Positions 33,001 through 45,000 of a DNA stretch of 64,000 nucleotides are shown here, piece by piece. Numbering within the stretch: the stretch's first letter is position 1; each line of letters begins with the position of its first letter. This DNA comes from Ruditapes philippinarum. Taxonomy: Eukaryota. The position numbers are program-made. The stretch spans positions 124,001 through 188,000 of the forward strand of contig NW_026852073.1 in assembly GCF_026571515.1 (NCBI RefSeq), given 5' to 3'.

Positions 33001-36000
33001 AAGTTTTTTTCTCACTCCAATATGTGCTTTAGTATCAAATCAGCAAATAGTGTTACCAGTCGCATCTGAAATAAAATGGAGTTAACATTAATGCTTAATT
33101 TAAATGTTCAACAGAGATAAATAAATAAAACTAACATTTCAAAAAAGATGTACATAGATTTGATAATTAAATTGGGGATAATCTTAGAGTTTTGTTCATA
33201 TGCGGGGTTCTAGAGTGTTAAAATCATAAAATATATTTCTTTGTAGCAAGGACAATTTGTTTTTCTTTATAAATAACCACTTGGTCATACCAGTAGTAAA
33301 GGTAGATATATTTTAATAAACTTGGTCATTCATTGCTACGGAGAATGAGTTCGATTGTCTTGATTGCTTGATAATAGAAAAGTATAATCAGAGGAAGAAA
33401 AGGACATGTTTATGTCAAAATCAATTTCGCAGATCTACACGTATGTTCTTATCTAAAAATGGCTGTGGTTCATCAACAAATATTTCATGATTTCTTTTTT
33501 CAAACACCAAAACGTAAAAAGTTTAGATGCAAATATAAAACAAACAAACCTACATTAAATATCCGTAATTAATTCAATGAGGAATTCGACTTGTATCAGA
33601 GGAAATGACACACCATACCTTTTAAGACTAAACTAGTTTCATCTGCAGAATGTTTACCAGCGCCATCTGGAACACAGCGGTAAGTGCCGGCGTTGTCACA
33701 TTGCGTTGATGCTAAAACTAGCATCAGTTGACCACTGTTTCCGGTAATATAGCTTAATTCCGTTATTCTATTAAATCCGGTGTTAGTCTCTCCGTTCAGG
33801 AAGCTCGATATTATGGTACTGTTATCCTTGTAAATGACGATATCTGTCAAACCATCAAAGTCTTTAACTTTACAGATTAGGGTTACAGAATCTCCTATCT
33901 GTATTTGATCAACAAAGTTGTCAATGTATATGTCTGGAAATATATTTCAGAAAATGACACCTAGTGCTGATTGAACTCTTTATTTTCGTGTACTTATTCA
34001 ATCGAATAATAATTATAAATAAAATTACCTACCTTCTTACAGATAATCACAATGAGAGTAAAATTCCACAAAAGTAAAGACGCGCCCAAAGAAAGCCGCC
34101 CATGTACATGTATATACGCAACTTAAATAAATTGTTTCAACTATATAATTATGGTGATTACGTGTCAAGTAATAAAGTTTAAAAAATAATTTGATTACTG
34201 TTTGGGACAATTCAAGTTTGCAGTTAAAATTTATTCAATTATTATAAACTTGCTTTTTCAATATTTCTTTGATAATGTTATAAAAACACTTATATAACTA
34301 ACCTCTTCAATGTATTAAAGGGACTCCACTGAGGTTTTTTGACATGATGGGACTGAAAATATTATTCCAGATAATTCTACCATTTGTTGCAGGTTTAGAC
34401 CACAAACCTTTGTGCAAAATTTCAGATCATTCGCGCAGTTCGTTTTTTCCAGGATAATTATTCAACTTGTAAAAAATGACCCAAAATGAAAAGCGTTTAA
34501 ATACTTTTCACTCAAAACCGTAAAAATACGATTTTCAATTTATTTCTTAGTATATTTCTTAACTATTTTTGCATATATTTCTGTTTAAAGTGCCCCAGTT
34601 CATTTATGTAAGAAATTCAAATGTTATGTTTTTAGGCTTTTAAACCTCAGTGGAGTCCATTTAAGAAGCTTTTGTATAAATTTGTAACATAATCCTTTAA
34701 ATATACATGATCAATTTTTTATACGAAAACTGAAGCCACATATTATATAAGTCTTTAAATTCCTAGAATTACCTGTCACGGAACATCCGCCTATCGTTTT
34801 ACAAGGATAACACGTCGTCTCATGAAAGCAATTACCTTGCCCACAACCTGCCGGCACACCCGACACATCCCCGCTGTGGCACCCGACAAACATATTACAA
34901 TGATAGGGGTGTCTTAGGACTCCAGTATAGACCTGGTTTTGAGTGCAATAGTTTTCTAAAGAAAATTTAATATACAGGTAAATATAAACAAAGGGAATCA
35001 ACATTAAATAAATGCAATATCAACACCCTAACAGAACATCAAATTACTAAGGCACAGCGTAACGACACACGGCGGGGCACTGCAAAAGGAATTGGGCAAC
35101 GAAAGGGCATAAATGGACAGATGTAAAATAAAAATAATATAAATATCATAATAAGTTAAAATTAAGAAAAACAGAATCTCTAAAGAAAGTGCAACATGAC
35201 AAAATTGAAAATGTTGCAGGTTCGGTTTGAATAAGCCTGTTCACAGACGGTACTGGAAAGTGCAAGTTACCATCCACGCCCCCTAGCACCGGCATAAGCA
35301 GAACTCAAAGTTTAAGCCCTTATTACAGCATCTTTCTTCTTAAAAATATACTATACTCAAATTTGATATTACAAAATATGGATAATTGTTGCACAGTCTC
35401 TTTGTACATAAACAAGTAACATAATTATTTAGACTTCACATAAAGTATAACATTTTGTTTAAAATCCTACACACTATTGGTGGTCACAATATAAATATAT
35501 AGTGTCATTAAAAATGTTGCTGTGTCTATGGAAGTTACGTTCATTGAACGCCGCCTTTCCTTGTTTAACATATTTTAGGTAAAGGAACAACCCATACATA
35601 TTTTATTTATTTTTTTTAAACAAATTAGACATATTCATTTATAGATTTCAATAAATTTCTGTGATTCATATAGTTTACTCAGGGATGAGTATAATGCATC
35701 TTTAACATATTTTTTAGATCAGGGCTATCATGCTATCATGCATCTATCCATAAACTATAATCACTTGGAAATATATTCCAAACAACCAAACAATTAACTT
35801 TTAAATGTTTAATAGGGAAAAATATTAAATGTTCAAACCTGGGATAACCTCTATGACTTGATTAGAAGACTCGGCTGCCTTACCATCCATCAGAGCTTGT
35901 GACGGTTTAGATATACATTTCAAAAGTTTGTTGTGATATTTGGCCGTCGCAGTGTTTATTCGAAATTCAATGACTCTCCTAGTACTACATTGTCCATTGT

Positions 36001-42000: not shown

Positions 42001-45000
42001 AGTAACAATGAATGTATACAATATATCGCCATAAAAAGTTGCAAATGTAAAGAAAGTAGTATTTTGATTTCCATGCAAAATACTATACTATTTTTCAAAA
42101 ATCAACATAAGCAAAATTTGGTTCAGTTAATTGGCCGGTGTTGAAGGCCCATTATGCCTTGGAAATGCTTTTATTTTTATTATCCCCCGAGGGATATAGA
42201 AATAGTCTCCGTTCTTCCGTCCGTCCGTCCGTCCGTCCGTCCGACATTTTTGGCCCGAGCATATCTCAAAAAGTATTTGAGGTATAAACTTGAAACTTCA
42301 TAGGTGGATAGATCATATTGAGTAGGAGTGCAGTGCACAAGAATGAAAACTCTACCTGCATAATTTTTCAGTTATTGCCCTTTGTTATTTGTCAAATTTC
42401 CCTTTTGTCCAGAACATAACTCAAAAAGCCTGTGAGATATCAACGTGAAACTTCATAGGTGGATAGATCTTACTCAGGAAGTGTGCAGTGCACAAGAGTG
42501 ATAACTCTACCCTTCAAAATTTTTGAGTTATTGCCCTTTGTTATTTTTCATACTTAATTTTTCACCTGAGTGGAGCATATTAACTCAAAAAGTCTTTGAG
42601 ATGTCAACATGAAACTTCATAGGTGGATAGATCTTATTGAGGAGGAATGCTGAATTATAACTCTACCCTTTATCATTTTTGAGTTATTGCCCTTTGTTAT
42701 TTTTCATACAATTTGTCCGGAGCTTATCTCAAAAAATGTTAGAGGTATCAACTTGAAACAAAGTTACTTCATAGGTGGATAGATCTCATTAAGGAGGAGG
42801 GCAGCACACAAGAATGATAACCTACCCTGCATATTTTTTCAGTTATTGCCTTTTGTTATTTTCAGTCATCAGTATTCATATAGGTTTCAAATCTGTACTC
42901 ATTTCAGCCATCAGTTTTCATTACCAAAATACCTCTTGAAATTGAATTATTCTGCCCTACTACATATACATTCTTCTAATGAGTAAACACATTCGGCGGG
43001 GGATGGCCATGTTAACATGGCTCTTGTTTCTCTTTTTTATGTGTACTTTTATAGTATTCAAAAAGTTACTCATTTCTTTCCGTGGCATAATGTGCCTTTA
43101 AATATTTTGCAAATATAGCAGGACAACAAAAATTAGCGGGAAAAATGAAATAAGAATAAAATCATTTCGGGAACACTAAGGACATATCAAAGTAAAAGTA
43201 TATACATACGGTTAGGTGGATCATCTTTGACAAACACAAAATAAATAATAACGCCTGCAGCTATCAGAATTATAAGTACAAAGATCGTTGCAATAATACA
43301 TCTTTGTGGCGAGCATATATCATTCTTCTTTGTACTAGTACTATTTCGTGAATTTTGTACATGTGTAATTACGTTTGAATCTAAAATCTTATCGTATGTT
43401 GTGCTTGAACTTCTGGTTGAATCACTAAGATTGACTGGATCTTGTCCTAAGCTCACTTGTTGACTTCCACTTTGTAAATGATAAGAAACTATAGGAACTA
43501 GGCAACTGGCTGTACGTTCTTCAGTCCGCACATCTCTTTCACGTATAACTTTATTTATTTCTCGTACATCACGGTCTACTGTTTTTAATCTGATATGGCT
43601 TTCTGTGTGCGCATTACGGTCAACAGTTCCCGCTCTGGTTTTGTTTTCTGCATGCGCATTACGGTCCACAGGTCCCGTTCTGGTTTTGTTTTCTGCATGC
43701 GCATTACGGTCCACAGTTCCCGCTCTGGTTTTGTTTTCTGCATGCGCATTACGGTCCACAGTTCCCGATCTGGTATGCTTTTCTGCAAGCGCATTACGGT
43801 CCACAGTTCCCGATCTGGTATGCTTTTCTGCAAGCGCATTTCTATCCACTGTTCCCGTTCTGTTATAGTTTTCTGCACGTTTATTTCTGGTCACATTTCC
43901 CGTACTTGTATGGTTTTCTGCACGCGCATTCTGATCCACAGTTTTCGTACATGTATGGTTTTCTGCACGCTTATTACTGGCCACAGTTTCCGTAGAGGTA
44001 TGGTTATAATCAGTATTGGCATCTTGGTCTACTGTTTTATTGCTATCATGACTATTTAAAACTCCTACACGACCATCGACATAACTTGAAACAGTTCCGT
44101 TACTCACATCTGATTCCTTTGCGTATGAATACGGAGATTCTTGTGATAATAATTCAAGTTGAATGTACCCTTCTGTGACTATGAGTTCCTGTCCACTGTC
44201 ATGGATATTAACCCGATTGTCATATTCGGTGGAACGGTTAGTTTCAGCTTTTTTTCCAAGTCCATGGGTATCCATGATCTTTTTTTATAGTAAGCGGGAC
44301 AATTTATAAATCAAAACTTCCTACTCTATATATAAATCCAGATTATTTAAAGTGAATAACTTGATATTTATCTTTTTTTTATAATTTAACAACTGATCGA
44401 GACTGTAAGTAAAATCTTATTGTCAATCTTTTTTTAATGTAAACGGAATAATCAATACATACAATTTTAATGGTCTTTTGAAAATCACCAAGTGTATAAT
44501 TTCCTTTTAATTCTTCTTTTTTTACATAAAGTTATGCAGTCACGGTCAATCACGGGCATGTCGTTTAAAATATGTTCTATTGATATATATCTGGGAGTTT
44601 ATGAAACTTAATACTCACTACAATGTAAACCCACAAAACTGATCAGTTAATGAAATTTGAAGCAACATTGTATACACACCGGTCTCTCAAATATCGACCT
44701 TTGTCTTACGACGCATTACTTACACCAAATGAGGGTAAAAAATGACTCCGACATAAAGAAGTCCGCGAAGGAATGACAAGTTTATTTTTAAGACCTATGA
44801 ATTTAAGCAATGGAAATACAAATATCAGATAATTTCGTATATTTTTGCTAACAACGTGTTCAGTTTCTGTTTTAAGTAATACTAGTTGCAGGTGAAATAT
44901 ACGAGAGAATATAGTTTGAATGATATAAATATGATCAACATGATTATATTCTGTCGTTTATCCAGTTAGCAACTTGTGAAACGAATTTATAAATTATAAA

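What the first reader, a model, noticed from the sequence alone, without database searches (positions are those of the whole stretch)
33040..44275. Unusual architecture: type II TM + 3 Sushi + multiple Ig + chitin-binding module
Seen: CCP, Ig-like and a Cys-rich RHPYHC..F..C..C..CF..C exon all lie C-terminal to the TM. Established: Ig + chitin-binding combinations are known from secreted amphioxus/ascidian VCBPs, and Ig receptors are normally type I. Inference: a convergent, membrane-anchored VCBP-like pattern receptor assembled by phase-1 exon shuffling. The CBM14 call rests on Cys spacing only.
Basis: partly seen in the sequence, partly recalled or inferred. Interest (0 to 1): 0.68.

Follow-up and report, generated by a model that had tools for sequence, protein, structure and literature searches.

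The report
Mosaic membrane protein gene, partly broken
A mollusc-like gene appears to encode a cell-surface protein anchored by its front end and carrying complement-type, antibody-type and peritrophin-type (chitin-binding family) modules, but one or two of its antibody-type exons are damaged in this assembly, so it is an interesting but unproven variant of a common kind of shuffled-domain gene.

Summary
The described pieces are on the minus strand, in the stated order. Exon 1 (44275-43210) has no signal peptide, ten 15-residue repeats and one membrane helix. One exon then carries three Sushi modules (Pfam E 6.6e-20). Ig-type exons follow, then a 61-codon Cys-rich exon (34955-34773), a clear Ig exon (33933-33619) and a short tail ending at 33040.

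The CBM14 call no longer rests on Cys spacing alone. Pfam CBM_14 is the exon's only hit, though below cut-off (E 0.031). The exon matches the three peritrophin-A domains of sea-hare EHEP (PDB 8in3, E 3.6e-5), and its nearest ESM Atlas clusters are all CBM_14.

"Multiple Ig" is weaker. Only one exon passes Pfam. The first Ig exon has an in-frame TAG and a frame problem. Two others are unrecognised; one has only a lead.

Domain exons are phase 1-1. The single-transcript, type II reading is an inference. No RNA or homologue search was possible, and the joined protein was never built.

The likeness to VCBP is domain content only. Peritrophin-A domains do not always bind chitin.

A Shark-type SH2-ankyrin-SH2 tyrosine kinase gene lies head-to-head 1.8 kb away.

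Verdict: plausible lineage-specific mosaic receptor, partly decayed; moderate interest.

The parts
43210..44275 (-). Exon 1. It runs from the ATG through 355 codons plus 1 base. It encodes a hydrophilic N-terminal region of 325 residues, a membrane helix and 6 further residues, and ends at a CC|GTATGT donor in phase 1.
   Evidence: Pfam gave nothing above cut-off.
43589..44005 (-). Tandem repeat inside exon 1, with a 45-nt (15-residue) period. TRF reports 9.3 copies at 83% matches. Read in register, there are about ten units at residues 80-244.
   Evidence: family D1, spacing 45.
44156..44167 (-). A single Tyr-x-x-Leu motif (YIQL, residues 37-40) in the presumed cytoplasmic N-terminus. It is a lead only.
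   Evidence: 2 Y-x-x-[LIV] motifs among 9 Tyr, which is no more than composition predicts. The triacidic stretch required of a hemITAM is absent.
43229..43300 (-). The only hydrophobic segment of exon 1 (residues 326-349). It is the presumed signal-anchor or transmembrane helix.
   Evidence: Kyte-Doolittle 19-residue mean up to 3.25, and no other window above 1.6. The N-side flank has 3 Lys/Arg and 1 Asp/Glu.
40300..40824 (-). Exon 2, with three Sushi/CCP modules in one phase 1-1 exon. An alternative acceptor gives a first base at 40806. The donor CAG|GTTCAA is weak, and an in-frame stop lies 4 codons beyond it.
39679..40049 (-). Exon 3, an Ig-type exon that is broken in this assembly. It has a strong acceptor at 40049 and an in-frame TAG at 39945-39943. 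In the Ig frame only a weak donor exists (last base 39720). The consensus donor ACAG|GTTTGT (last base 39679) lies in another frame, and the 371-nt span is not a multiple of 3.
   Evidence: Ig_3 E 0.003 and V-set E 0.018, both aligned across the stop, which was read as X.
37296..37466 (-). Exon 4 candidate, doubtful. It is a 171-nt phase 1-1 unit with a good acceptor and a TTG|GTGAAC donor. The longer open frame down to 37189 has an Ig-like ending but no phase-1 donor. No family was recognised.
   Evidence: hhalign probability 0.6%.
35884..36210 (-). Exon 5, a clean phase 1-1 exon of 109 codons. It is beta-rich and probably Ig-like, but this is unproven.
   Evidence: One search gives the splice sites. 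There is no Pfam or PDB sequence hit. The AF2 model shows 7 strands but mean pLDDT is 52.4. Foldseek gave 0 matches at E <= 0.001. In the ESM Atlas the best clusters are unnamed and mollusc-dominated (0.94), and the named ones are Ig families (0.87-0.90), with a recognition score below the usual level.
34773..34955 (-). Exon 6, a peritrophin-A/CBM14-type Cys-rich module. It has eight Cys, with spacing C-x15-C-x5-C-x11-C and so on. It is phase 1-1, with a TTTAG| acceptor and a CAG|GTAATT donor.
   Evidence: One search gives the splice sites. CBM_14 is the only family (E 0.031, 14.9 bits against a cut-off of 22.1); 8in3_A at E 3.6e-5 in 3 stretches, and 7bwe_A at E 0.47; the three best Atlas clusters are all CBM_14 (0.87-0.82).
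33619..33933 (-). Exon 7, an Ig domain in a phase 1-1 exon. The two Cys are 65 residues apart.
   Evidence: Pfam ig at E 1.8e-7, above cut-off, with V-set at E 0.0033, below cut-off; 30 weak PDB matches at E 0.009-1, nearly all Ig-type domains and mostly antibody or TCR variable domains.
33040..33065 (-). Exon 8, an 8-codon tail ending in TGA (33042-33040). The acceptor is TTATTTCAG| in phase 1.
   Evidence: Read. No independent support.

Best explanation
This is one minus-strand gene of a mollusc-like genome (44275 to 33040, about 11.2 kb, up to 8 exons). It encodes a single-pass type II (signal-anchor) mosaic surface protein.

The inferred layout is:
- A 325-residue hydrophilic cytoplasmic N-terminus with about ten 15-residue repeats.
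- One membrane helix.
- A membrane-proximal block of three CCP modules.
- A membrane-distal end of an Ig-like module, a peritrophin-A/CBM14-type module and a V/I-length Ig domain.

All extracellular modules sit on phase 1-1 exons, so the gene looks assembled by exon shuffling.

Two exons between the CCP block and the distal modules are defective or doubtful in this assembly. Exon 3 has a stop codon and a frame inconsistency. Exon 4 has no usable full-length donor. Because flanking exons are all phase 1-1, skipping them would keep the frame, so the likely product is TM - 3 CCP - Ig-like - peritrophin-A - Ig.

The inferred mode of action is ligand capture at the C-terminal end, far from the membrane as in other type II receptors. 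The ligand could be chitin or another glycan or polyphenol bound by the peritrophin-type module, or a protein bound by the Ig domains. Any signal would pass through the long N-terminal tail.

What is shown: the domains, their order, the splice phases and the defects. What is inferred: a single transcript, the topology, exon skipping, ligand binding and signalling.
For: - Domains and order.
- Exon 1 has no signal peptide and only one hydrophobic segment.
- Exon lengths are multiples of 3, with consensus sites in phase 1: exon 2 (525 or 507 nt), exon 5 (327), exon 6 (183), exon 7 (315). The exon 1 donor is also in phase 1.
- No convincing alternative signal-peptide exon was found. There were 2 weak candidates in the 2.4-kb first intron. 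Of 17 candidates upstream, none had more than 3 of 5 donor points or looked like a signal peptide.
- 87 other minus-strand frames of 30 residues or more in 32900-44400 gave no Sushi, Ig or CBM_14 match. 4 of the 87 had chance-level hits to unrelated families.
- No second copy of any exon exists in the window.
- The recognised defects lie in exon 3 (and possibly exon 4), while the roughly 1350 nt of exons 2, 5, 6 and 7 are clean. That pattern fits selection on those four better than uniform decay. This is a rough argument, because exons were found by being open.
Against: - There is no transcript evidence of any kind.
- The exon 2 donor is weak (GTTCAA), and an in-frame stop follows it after 4 codons, so a short TM + 3 CCP product is possible.
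- Exon 3 carries TAG within the Ig alignment.
- Exons 4 and 5 are recognised by neither Pfam nor any meaningful PDB sequence hit. They show no significant likeness to the two Ig exons (best E 0.038 in a 4-sequence set; hhalign probability 0.1% and 0.6%).
- CBM_14 is below Pfam's cut-off, and the fold could not be confirmed (AF2 mean pLDDT 43.7).
- The N-terminal region has 13 N-x-S/T sequons. That would suit an extracellular stalk, although the region is rich in Asn, Ser and Thr and the sequons repeat with the tandem units.
- Left unread after the stop, exon 1 alone would encode a tail-anchored protein.
Confidence: 0.5

Rival explanations
1. The locus is a pseudogene or a null allele. A once-intact mosaic receptor gene is decaying, and no full-length protein is made from this haplotype.
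For: - In-frame TAG at 39945-39943 inside the Ig alignment.
- The span between the strong acceptor and the strong donor of exon 3 is 371 nt, not a multiple of 3.
- The long frame of exon 4 ends in a stop with no phase-1 donor, while another frame continues with a strand-like peptide.
- A frameshifted C1q remnant lies 1.5 kb downstream at 31135-31484, so decayed gene pieces exist in this neighbourhood.
Against: - Exons 1, 2, 5, 6, 7 and 8 are open and have consensus, phase-compatible sites.
- The defects cluster in exons that can be skipped without changing the frame.
- A single nonsense codon may be an allele or an assembly error.
Confidence: 0.22
2. There are separate transcripts. Exon 1 is its own gene: a repeat-rich, tail-anchored membrane protein ending at the stop at 43189-43187, or one joined only to the Sushi exon. 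The downstream Ig/peritrophin exons would belong to another transcript, or be a 5'-truncated relic.
For: - The exon 1 frame runs into a stop 7 codons after the donor, which would place the helix within 16 residues of the C-terminus.
- The Sushi exon frame also reaches a stop 4 codons after a weak donor.
- Matching phase between two exons has a one-in-three chance.
Against: - The downstream exons have no start codon or signal peptide of their own, and none was found nearby.
- The exon 1 donor is a good GTATGT placed just after the helix, in the same phase 1 as every module exon.
Confidence: 0.18
3. The gene model is as in the best explanation, but the role is structural rather than immune. It would be a mantle or epithelial surface protein that tethers cells to a chitin-containing matrix such as shell framework or gut lining.
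For: - The chitin-binding type 2 domain is one of six domains shared by the shell-matrix proteomes of the five conchiferans compared, and Sushi-like proteins appear in the Nautilus shell-matrix protein list (PMC8700984, passages).
- All five papers that mention Sushi, immunoglobulin, chitin-binding and bivalve together concern shell matrix or mantle (titles and abstract starts only).
Against: - The shell-matrix proteins described in that paper are secreted proteins with signal peptides.
- Nothing here shows where the gene is expressed.
- Neighbouring genes (C1q family, Shark-type kinase) are of immune or signalling types, although neighbourhood is weak evidence.
Confidence: 0.1

Closest known systems
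Peritrophin-A / CBM14 domains, in particular the three domains of EHEP from the sea hare Aplysia kurodai (PDB 8in3)
   Same: - Exon 6 aligns in register to all three EHEP domains (whole-sequence E 3.6e-5).
- It shares the first two Cys spacings of the published pattern CX15CX5CX9CX12CX5-9C exactly (PMC10619976, passages).
- It shares an H-P-Y-x-C-x-x-aromatic-x-G-C core with EHEP domain 2.
- Pfam CBM_14 is its only hit.
   Different: - The Pfam score is below the cut-off (14.9 against 22.1 bits).
- Later spacings differ by 1-2 residues, and there are two extra Cys (eight in all).
- It is a single module embedded between Ig-type exons of a membrane protein. EHEP is a secreted three-domain digestive protein.
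- EHEP binds phlorotannin and not chitin.
[quoted passage not shown]
   Same: Both combine Ig-type domains with one chitin-binding-type domain in a protein of presumed recognition function.
   Different: [quoted passage not shown] That they are secreted is recalled.
- This gene has a membrane anchor, three CCP modules and a different domain order, with an Ig after the peritrophin-type module.
- No Ig here passes the V-set cut-off.
- The organism looks like a mollusc, so any likeness would be convergent.
CCP-module proteins of the complement-regulator type (factor H, CR2, MCP, DAF)
   Same: The three modules of exon 2 match these proteins strongly (best E 1.3e-54 to factor H; 61 PDB sequences at E <= 0.001).
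   Different: As I recall, those proteins are secreted, type I or GPI-anchored. Here the CCP block would follow an N-terminal signal anchor and be joined to Ig and peritrophin-type modules. No functional equivalence is implied.
Type II receptors with a hemITAM that signal through Syk (the CLEC-2 type)
   Same: - There is a presumed type II topology with the recognition modules at the C-terminal end.
- A single Y-x-x-L lies near the N-terminus (residues 37-40).
- A Syk-related Shark-type kinase gene lies next door.
   Different: - The hemITAM requires a triacidic stretch upstream of the YXXL (PMC3576117, abstract start in the listing). Here only one acidic residue lies in the four positions before the Tyr.
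- The ectodomain has no C-type lectin domain.
- The cytoplasmic region is 325 residues long and repetitive.

Membership tests
Peritrophin-A / CBM14 (Pfam PF01607) | A score above Pfam's gathering cut-off. | tested here: not met
   14.9 bits against 22.1, E 0.031, residues 10-47 on profile positions 6-41 of 53. It is nevertheless the only family reported for this exon.
Peritrophin-A / CBM14 (Pfam PF01607) | The six-Cys pattern CX15CX5CX9CX12CX5-9C, as given for EHEP domains. | tested here: inconclusive
   Cys lie at residues 3, 19, 25, 37, 42, 48, 51 and 57 of the 60-residue exon translation (alignment; pattern from PMC10619976). The x15 and x5 spacings are exact. The third spacing is x11 rather than x9. 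The last two can be satisfied in two ways, and two Cys are extra.
Peritrophin-A / CBM14 (Pfam PF01607) | Significant sequence similarity to a domain with a solved CBM14 fold. | tested here: met
   8in3_A at E 3.6e-5, with three stretches, one per EHEP domain. The single stretches are weak on their own (0.091, 2.4 and 10). 7bwe_A (chitin binding beak protein 3) scores E 0.47.
Peritrophin-A / CBM14 (Pfam PF01607) | The CBM14 fold: two small beta-sheets held by three disulfides. | tested here: inconclusive
   single-sequence AF2 gave mean pLDDT 43.7, too poor to search. It did show four short strands.
Peritrophin-A / CBM14 (Pfam PF01607) | Binding of chitin. | not testable with these tools
   The family includes non-binders, EHEP and Der p 23 (PMC10619976).
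Sushi / CCP (PF00084) | A Pfam match above cut-off, in three modules. | tested here: met
   E 6.6e-20, 71.7 bits against 20.7, 3 stretches. One search gives PDB support.
Immunoglobulin superfamily domain | A Pfam Ig-clan match above cut-off for each claimed Ig exon. | tested here: inconclusive
   Exon 7 is met (ig, 31.8 bits against 21.8). Exon 3 is below cut-off and interrupted by TAG. Exons 4 and 5 have no hit. Exon 5 has only an Atlas lead.
VCBP | Two tandem V-type Ig domains and one chitin-binding domain, with no membrane anchor. | tested here: not met
   The domain order here is TM - 3 CCP - (Ig) - ? - Ig-like - peritrophin-type - Ig. The definition is from PMC7916673.
Type II (signal-anchor) membrane protein | No cleavable signal peptide, and a single helix N-terminal to the extracellular domains. 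| tested here: met
   by hydropathy only. No dedicated topology predictor was available.
Type II (signal-anchor) membrane protein | The helix and the ectodomain lie on one polypeptide. | not testable with these tools
   This needs transcripts or orthologues. Only phase compatibility was shown.
hemITAM receptor | A single cytosolic YXXL preceded by a triacidic stretch. | tested here: not met
   YIQL is present at residues 37-40, but only one acidic residue lies in the four positions before it. The definition is from the abstract start of PMC3576117.
Shark-type kinase (the neighbouring gene, not the finding) | The order SH2 - ankyrin repeats - SH2 - tyrosine kinase. | tested here: met
   7 of 116 plus-strand frames hit, namely SH2 at 48277-48465, Ank at 50979-51634, SH2 at 54695-54904, and kinase at 60120-63481. 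The definition is from PMC13344425. The kinase exon alone is not nearest to Syk in the PDB.

The most novel reading that the evidence does not exclude
A mollusc surface receptor with type II topology uses a peritrophin-A/Ig/CCP ectodomain in place of a C-type lectin domain to detect chitin or related microbial or dietary polymers. It signals through a tyrosine motif in its long N-terminal tail to the Shark (Syk-family) kinase encoded head-to-head 1.8 kb away. This would be an invertebrate, convergently built counterpart of the vertebrate hemITAM receptor-Syk axis, kept together as a divergently transcribed gene pair.
Probability: 0.06. Interest if true: 0.8.

Novelty: new variant of a known kind. 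Interest (0 to 1): 0.4.

Why it matters
If the model is right, it would be an unusual topology for Ig- and CCP-bearing proteins, which are normally type I or secreted. It would also be an Ig plus chitin-binding-type combination outside the chordates, built independently by exon shuffling.

That bears on how invertebrates, especially bivalves with their expanded immune gene families, assemble new recognition receptors.

The practical value is limited for now. The transcript is unverified, one Ig exon is broken in this assembly, and the ligand is unknown.

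Tried and rejected
- Single-sequence AF2 of the Cys-rich exon gave mean pLDDT 43.7, so I did not send it to Foldseek.
- AF2 of exon 5 gave pLDDT 52.4 and seven strands. Foldseek against the PDB returned 0 matches at E <= 0.001 among 480 at E <= 10, with unrelated folds on top, so it was uninformative.
- PDB sequence searches of exons 5 and 4 gave 0 hits and 2 chance-level hits respectively.
- All-against-all BLASTP of the four Ig-type exons, and hhalign of exons 5 and 4 against an alignment of exons 7 and 3, showed nothing significant. A 17-column match of exon 4 to the start of exon 7 has probability 0.6%.
- Scans for an alternative signal-peptide exon found only weak candidates.
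- A splice that removes the TAG from exon 3 was considered and rejected. The only GT before the stop and AG after it would leave introns of about 22 nt, or would delete the conserved Trp region (read).
- hemITAM membership was rejected because the acidic stretch is absent.
- The PDB search of one kinase exon of the neighbour did not single out Syk (EGFR on top). Its SH2 exon matched Grb7/10, ZAP-70 and SYK about equally.
- Literature searches for the architecture found nothing: 0 papers; 5, all on shell matrix or mantle; 1 review; 0; 1 mantle transcriptome.
- No complex-prediction job was sent.

Full report
**Scope and limits.** The window has no N. I do not take it for human. It is 28-37% G+C. 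It carries three tandem C1q-domain genes. The nearest ESM Atlas clusters for one exon are mollusc-dominated.

The joined, spliced protein was never assembled, searched or folded. What that leaves open is stated below.

As a result, orthologues, paralogues elsewhere in the genome and the architecture's distribution in mollusc proteomes all stayed unchecked. Supplementary files of papers were not consulted.

Exon 1 starts at ATG 44275 and runs 355 codons to a CC|GTATGT donor at 43210, leaving one base, so it ends in phase 1.
- Its translation has no hydrophobic N-terminus. The best 9-residue Kyte-Doolittle mean in the first 30 residues is -1.08.
- It has exactly one hydrophobic segment, residues 326-349, with a 19-residue mean up to 3.25. 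No other window exceeds 1.6.
- The first 325 residues are rich in Thr, Ser, Asn and Arg. They contain a 45-nt tandem repeat (9.3 copies, 83% matches; spacing 45). In register this reads as about ten 15-residue units.
- Pfam finds nothing above cut-off in exon 1.

**Sushi exon.** The next exon has its first base at 40824, or at 40806 with an alternative acceptor, and its last base at 40300. It encodes three Sushi/CCP modules in a single exon.
- Pfam PF00084 gives E 6.6e-20 in 3 stretches.
- 61 PDB sequences match at E <= 0.001, led by factor H and CR2.
- Either acceptor gives a length that is a multiple of three and phase 1 at both ends (read).
- Its donor is weak (CAG|GTTCAA), and the frame would reach a stop four codons later if it were not spliced.

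**Ig-type exons.** Of four candidates, only the last one (33933-33619) passes a Pfam cut-off.
- Exon 7. Pfam 'ig' gives E 1.8e-7 and 31.8 bits against 21.8. V-set is below cut-off at E 0.0033. The PDB matches are weak (E 0.009-1), nearly all to Ig-type domains and mostly to antibody or TCR variable domains.
- Exon 3, starting at the strong acceptor 40049. It is Ig-like only when an in-frame TAG at 39945-39943 is read as X (Ig_3 E 0.003, V-set E 0.018). Both alignments span the stop, so the stop lies inside the domain.
  - In that frame the only phase-1 donor is a poor T|GTTAAA at 39720.
  - A consensus donor ACAG|GTTTGT at 39679 is reached only in another frame that is open there (frame 39581-39769).
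  - The span from 40049 to 39679 is 371 nt, not a multiple of three.
  - Exon 3 therefore carries a nonsense codon and, most likely, a frameshift.
- Exon 4, acceptor at 37466. It has no family hit.
  - Its long frame ends in a stop after an Ig-like C-x-D-A ending, with no phase-1 donor.
  - A 171-nt phase 1-1 unit (37466-37296) is possible, but it encodes no recognisable domain.
- Exon 5 (36210-35884). It has consensus sites and phase 1-1 but no Pfam or PDB sequence hit.
  - Single-sequence AF2 gives seven strands at mean pLDDT 52.4.
  - Foldseek is uninformative.
  - In the Atlas, unnamed mollusc-dominated clusters come first (0.94). Among the ten best hits that carry a family, nine share a family or clan with the best of those ten, which is an Ig family. 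The recognition score of 2149 is below the usual 2300, so this is a lead only.
- The four exons show no significant likeness to one another.

**The Cys-rich exon.** Exon 6 (34955-34773) has a TTTAG| acceptor and a CAG|GTAATT donor. It is 183 nt and phase 1-1.

Trimmed to the exon, its only Pfam hit among 24,736 models is CBM_14. The match covers residues 10-47 on profile positions 6-41 of 53, with E 0.031 and 14.9 bits, below the 22.1-bit cut-off.

As background, 4 of 87 non-exon frames from the same region also obtained some hit at E <= 0.05. These were to unrelated families, and none was CBM_14, Ig or Sushi. That E-value alone is therefore noise-level. The identity of the family is what counts.

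Independently, phmmer against PDB sequences finds two proteins at E <= 10:
- 8in3_A at E 3.6e-5, with the exon aligned in register to each of three internal domains.
- 7bwe_A, a squid chitin binding beak protein, at E 0.47.

[quoted passage not shown] It has three peritrophin-A domains with a canonical CBM14 fold, Cys pattern CX15CX5CX9CX12CX5-9C and disulfides 1-3, 2-6 and 4-5 (PMC10619976, passages).

The exon has Cys at residues 3, 19, 25, 37, 42, 48, 51 and 57. The x15 and x5 spacings are exact, the rest are close, and two Cys are extra.

The three best Atlas clusters are all 100% CBM_14 (0.87, 0.83, 0.82). All ten best hits that carry a family share a family or clan with the best of them. 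At under 0.9 this is again a lead only.

The AF2 model was too poor to test the fold (pLDDT 43.7).

I conclude that the exon encodes a divergent peritrophin-A/CBM14-type module. The same paper states that EHEP and Der p 23 do not bind chitin and that critical binding residues are not conserved across the family. Chitin binding is therefore a hypothesis, not a consequence.

**The 3' end.** After exon 7 (donor AAG|GTATGG, phase 1), an acceptor TTATTTCAG| at 33066 opens an 8-codon tail ending in TGA at 33042-33040 (read). It has no independent support.

**One gene or several.** In favour of one transcript:
- The strand and order are the same throughout.
- The exon 1 donor and exons 2, 5, 6, 7 and 8 are all in phase 1.
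- The downstream exons have no start codon or signal peptide of their own.
- The scans for another signal-peptide exon found only weak candidates: 2 in the first intron and 17 upstream, none convincing.
- No further domain-coding frame lies among 87 other minus-strand frames.

Against it:
- There is no transcript evidence.
- Phase matching between any two exons has a one-in-three chance.
- Both exon 1 and exon 2 would reach stops shortly after their donors. Shorter products are therefore possible: a tail-anchored repeat protein, or TM plus three CCP modules.

If the exons are one transcript, type II topology follows. There is no signal peptide, and the disulfide-rich modules all lie after the only helix. 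The N-side flank of the helix is the more basic one, with 3 Lys/Arg against 1 acidic residue.

**Most likely account.** This is a lineage-specific mosaic surface protein built from phase 1-1 modules, with type II topology, whose middle Ig exons are decayed in this assembly. Skipping exons 3 and 4 preserves the frame and gives TM - 3 CCP - Ig-like - peritrophin-A - Ig.

The defects sit in about 370-640 nt, while about 1350 nt of exons 2, 5, 6 and 7 are clean. This favours continued selection on those four exons. The argument is rough, because exons were recognised by being open.

The rivals are a pseudogene or null allele, separate transcripts, and a structural (matrix-tethering) rather than immune role. 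On the last, the chitin-binding type 2 domain is one of six domains shared by the five conchiferan shell-matrix proteomes compared, and Sushi-like proteins appear in the Nautilus list (PMC8700984, passages).

**Comparison with known systems.** VCBPs comprise two tandem V-type Ig domains and one chitin-binding domain (PMC7916673, passages). That they are secreted is recalled. The present gene shares only the domain types.

The CCP block resembles complement regulators in sequence only.

The single Y-x-x-L near the N-terminus (residues 37-40) recalls hemITAM receptors. However, the required triacidic stretch (PMC3576117, abstract start in the listing) is absent. Two Y-x-x-[LIV] motifs among nine Tyr is also what composition predicts.

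Searches for the architecture in print found nothing. These cover only the open-access library and a few word combinations.

**Surroundings.** A plus-strand gene starts at a putative ATG at 46087, 1.8 kb head-to-head with exon 1. It has SH2, ankyrin, SH2 and tyrosine-kinase exons in that order (7 of 116 frames hit). [quoted passage not shown]

The adjacency is suggestive for a receptor with a tyrosine motif, but it is not evidence of interaction, and no complex prediction was run.

**Verdict.** The 'multiple Ig' claim and the single-transcript model are only partly supported, and the VCBP analogy is loose. I rate it a new variant of a known kind (shuffled CCP/Ig mosaic surface proteins), of moderate interest.

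Noticed in passing
window 46087-63481 and beyond, + strand: A Shark-type kinase gene lies head-to-head with the finding, about 1.8 kb between the putative ATGs. Its exons are SH2 (48277-48465, with the SH2 start in 45982-46377), ankyrin repeats (50979-51634), a second SH2 (54695-54904) and a tyrosine kinase (60120-60488, 61551-61889, 63299-63481). It runs off the window.
   Followed up: partly
window 1823-4180, 16735-19177, 21516-23369, + strand: Three tandem paralogous genes, each with a first exon encoding a signal-peptide-like start and a long coiled-coil-like region, and a second exon encoding a C1q domain. Pfam C1q gives E 7.8e-18, 6.7e-15 and 4.4e-15. The C1q exons are 71% identical to each other.
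   Followed up: partly
window 31135-31484, + strand: A decayed fourth C1q exon. Three tblastn pieces, which ORF listing shows in separate short frames, match the C1q domain of the 22962 gene at a joint E of 4.3e-13. None of the pieces is recognised by Pfam. It lies 1.5 kb beyond the 3' end of the finding.
   Followed up: partly
window 32297-32368 and 41564-41635: A 72-nt inverted pair, 89% complementary, one arm in the first intron of the finding and one downstream of it. Translations of both look like the same short interspersed element. Neither the element nor any tRNA relation was tested.
   Followed up: no
window 42248-42861: Three to four copies of a unit of about 155 nt (families D2 and D3, 63-85% identity) in the first intron. 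Next to them is a run whose translation repeats a four-residue unit.
   Followed up: no
window 35240-35308 and 38024-38092: A 69-nt direct repeat pair at 78% identity in two different introns of the finding. Longer open frames around both copies resemble each other, so this is probably a dispersed element.
   Followed up: no
window 43300-44275, - strand: The presumed cytoplasmic region has 13 N-x-S/T sequons, most of them inside the 15-residue repeats. This is odd for a cytoplasmic tail, though the region is rich in Asn, Ser and Thr.
   Followed up: partly
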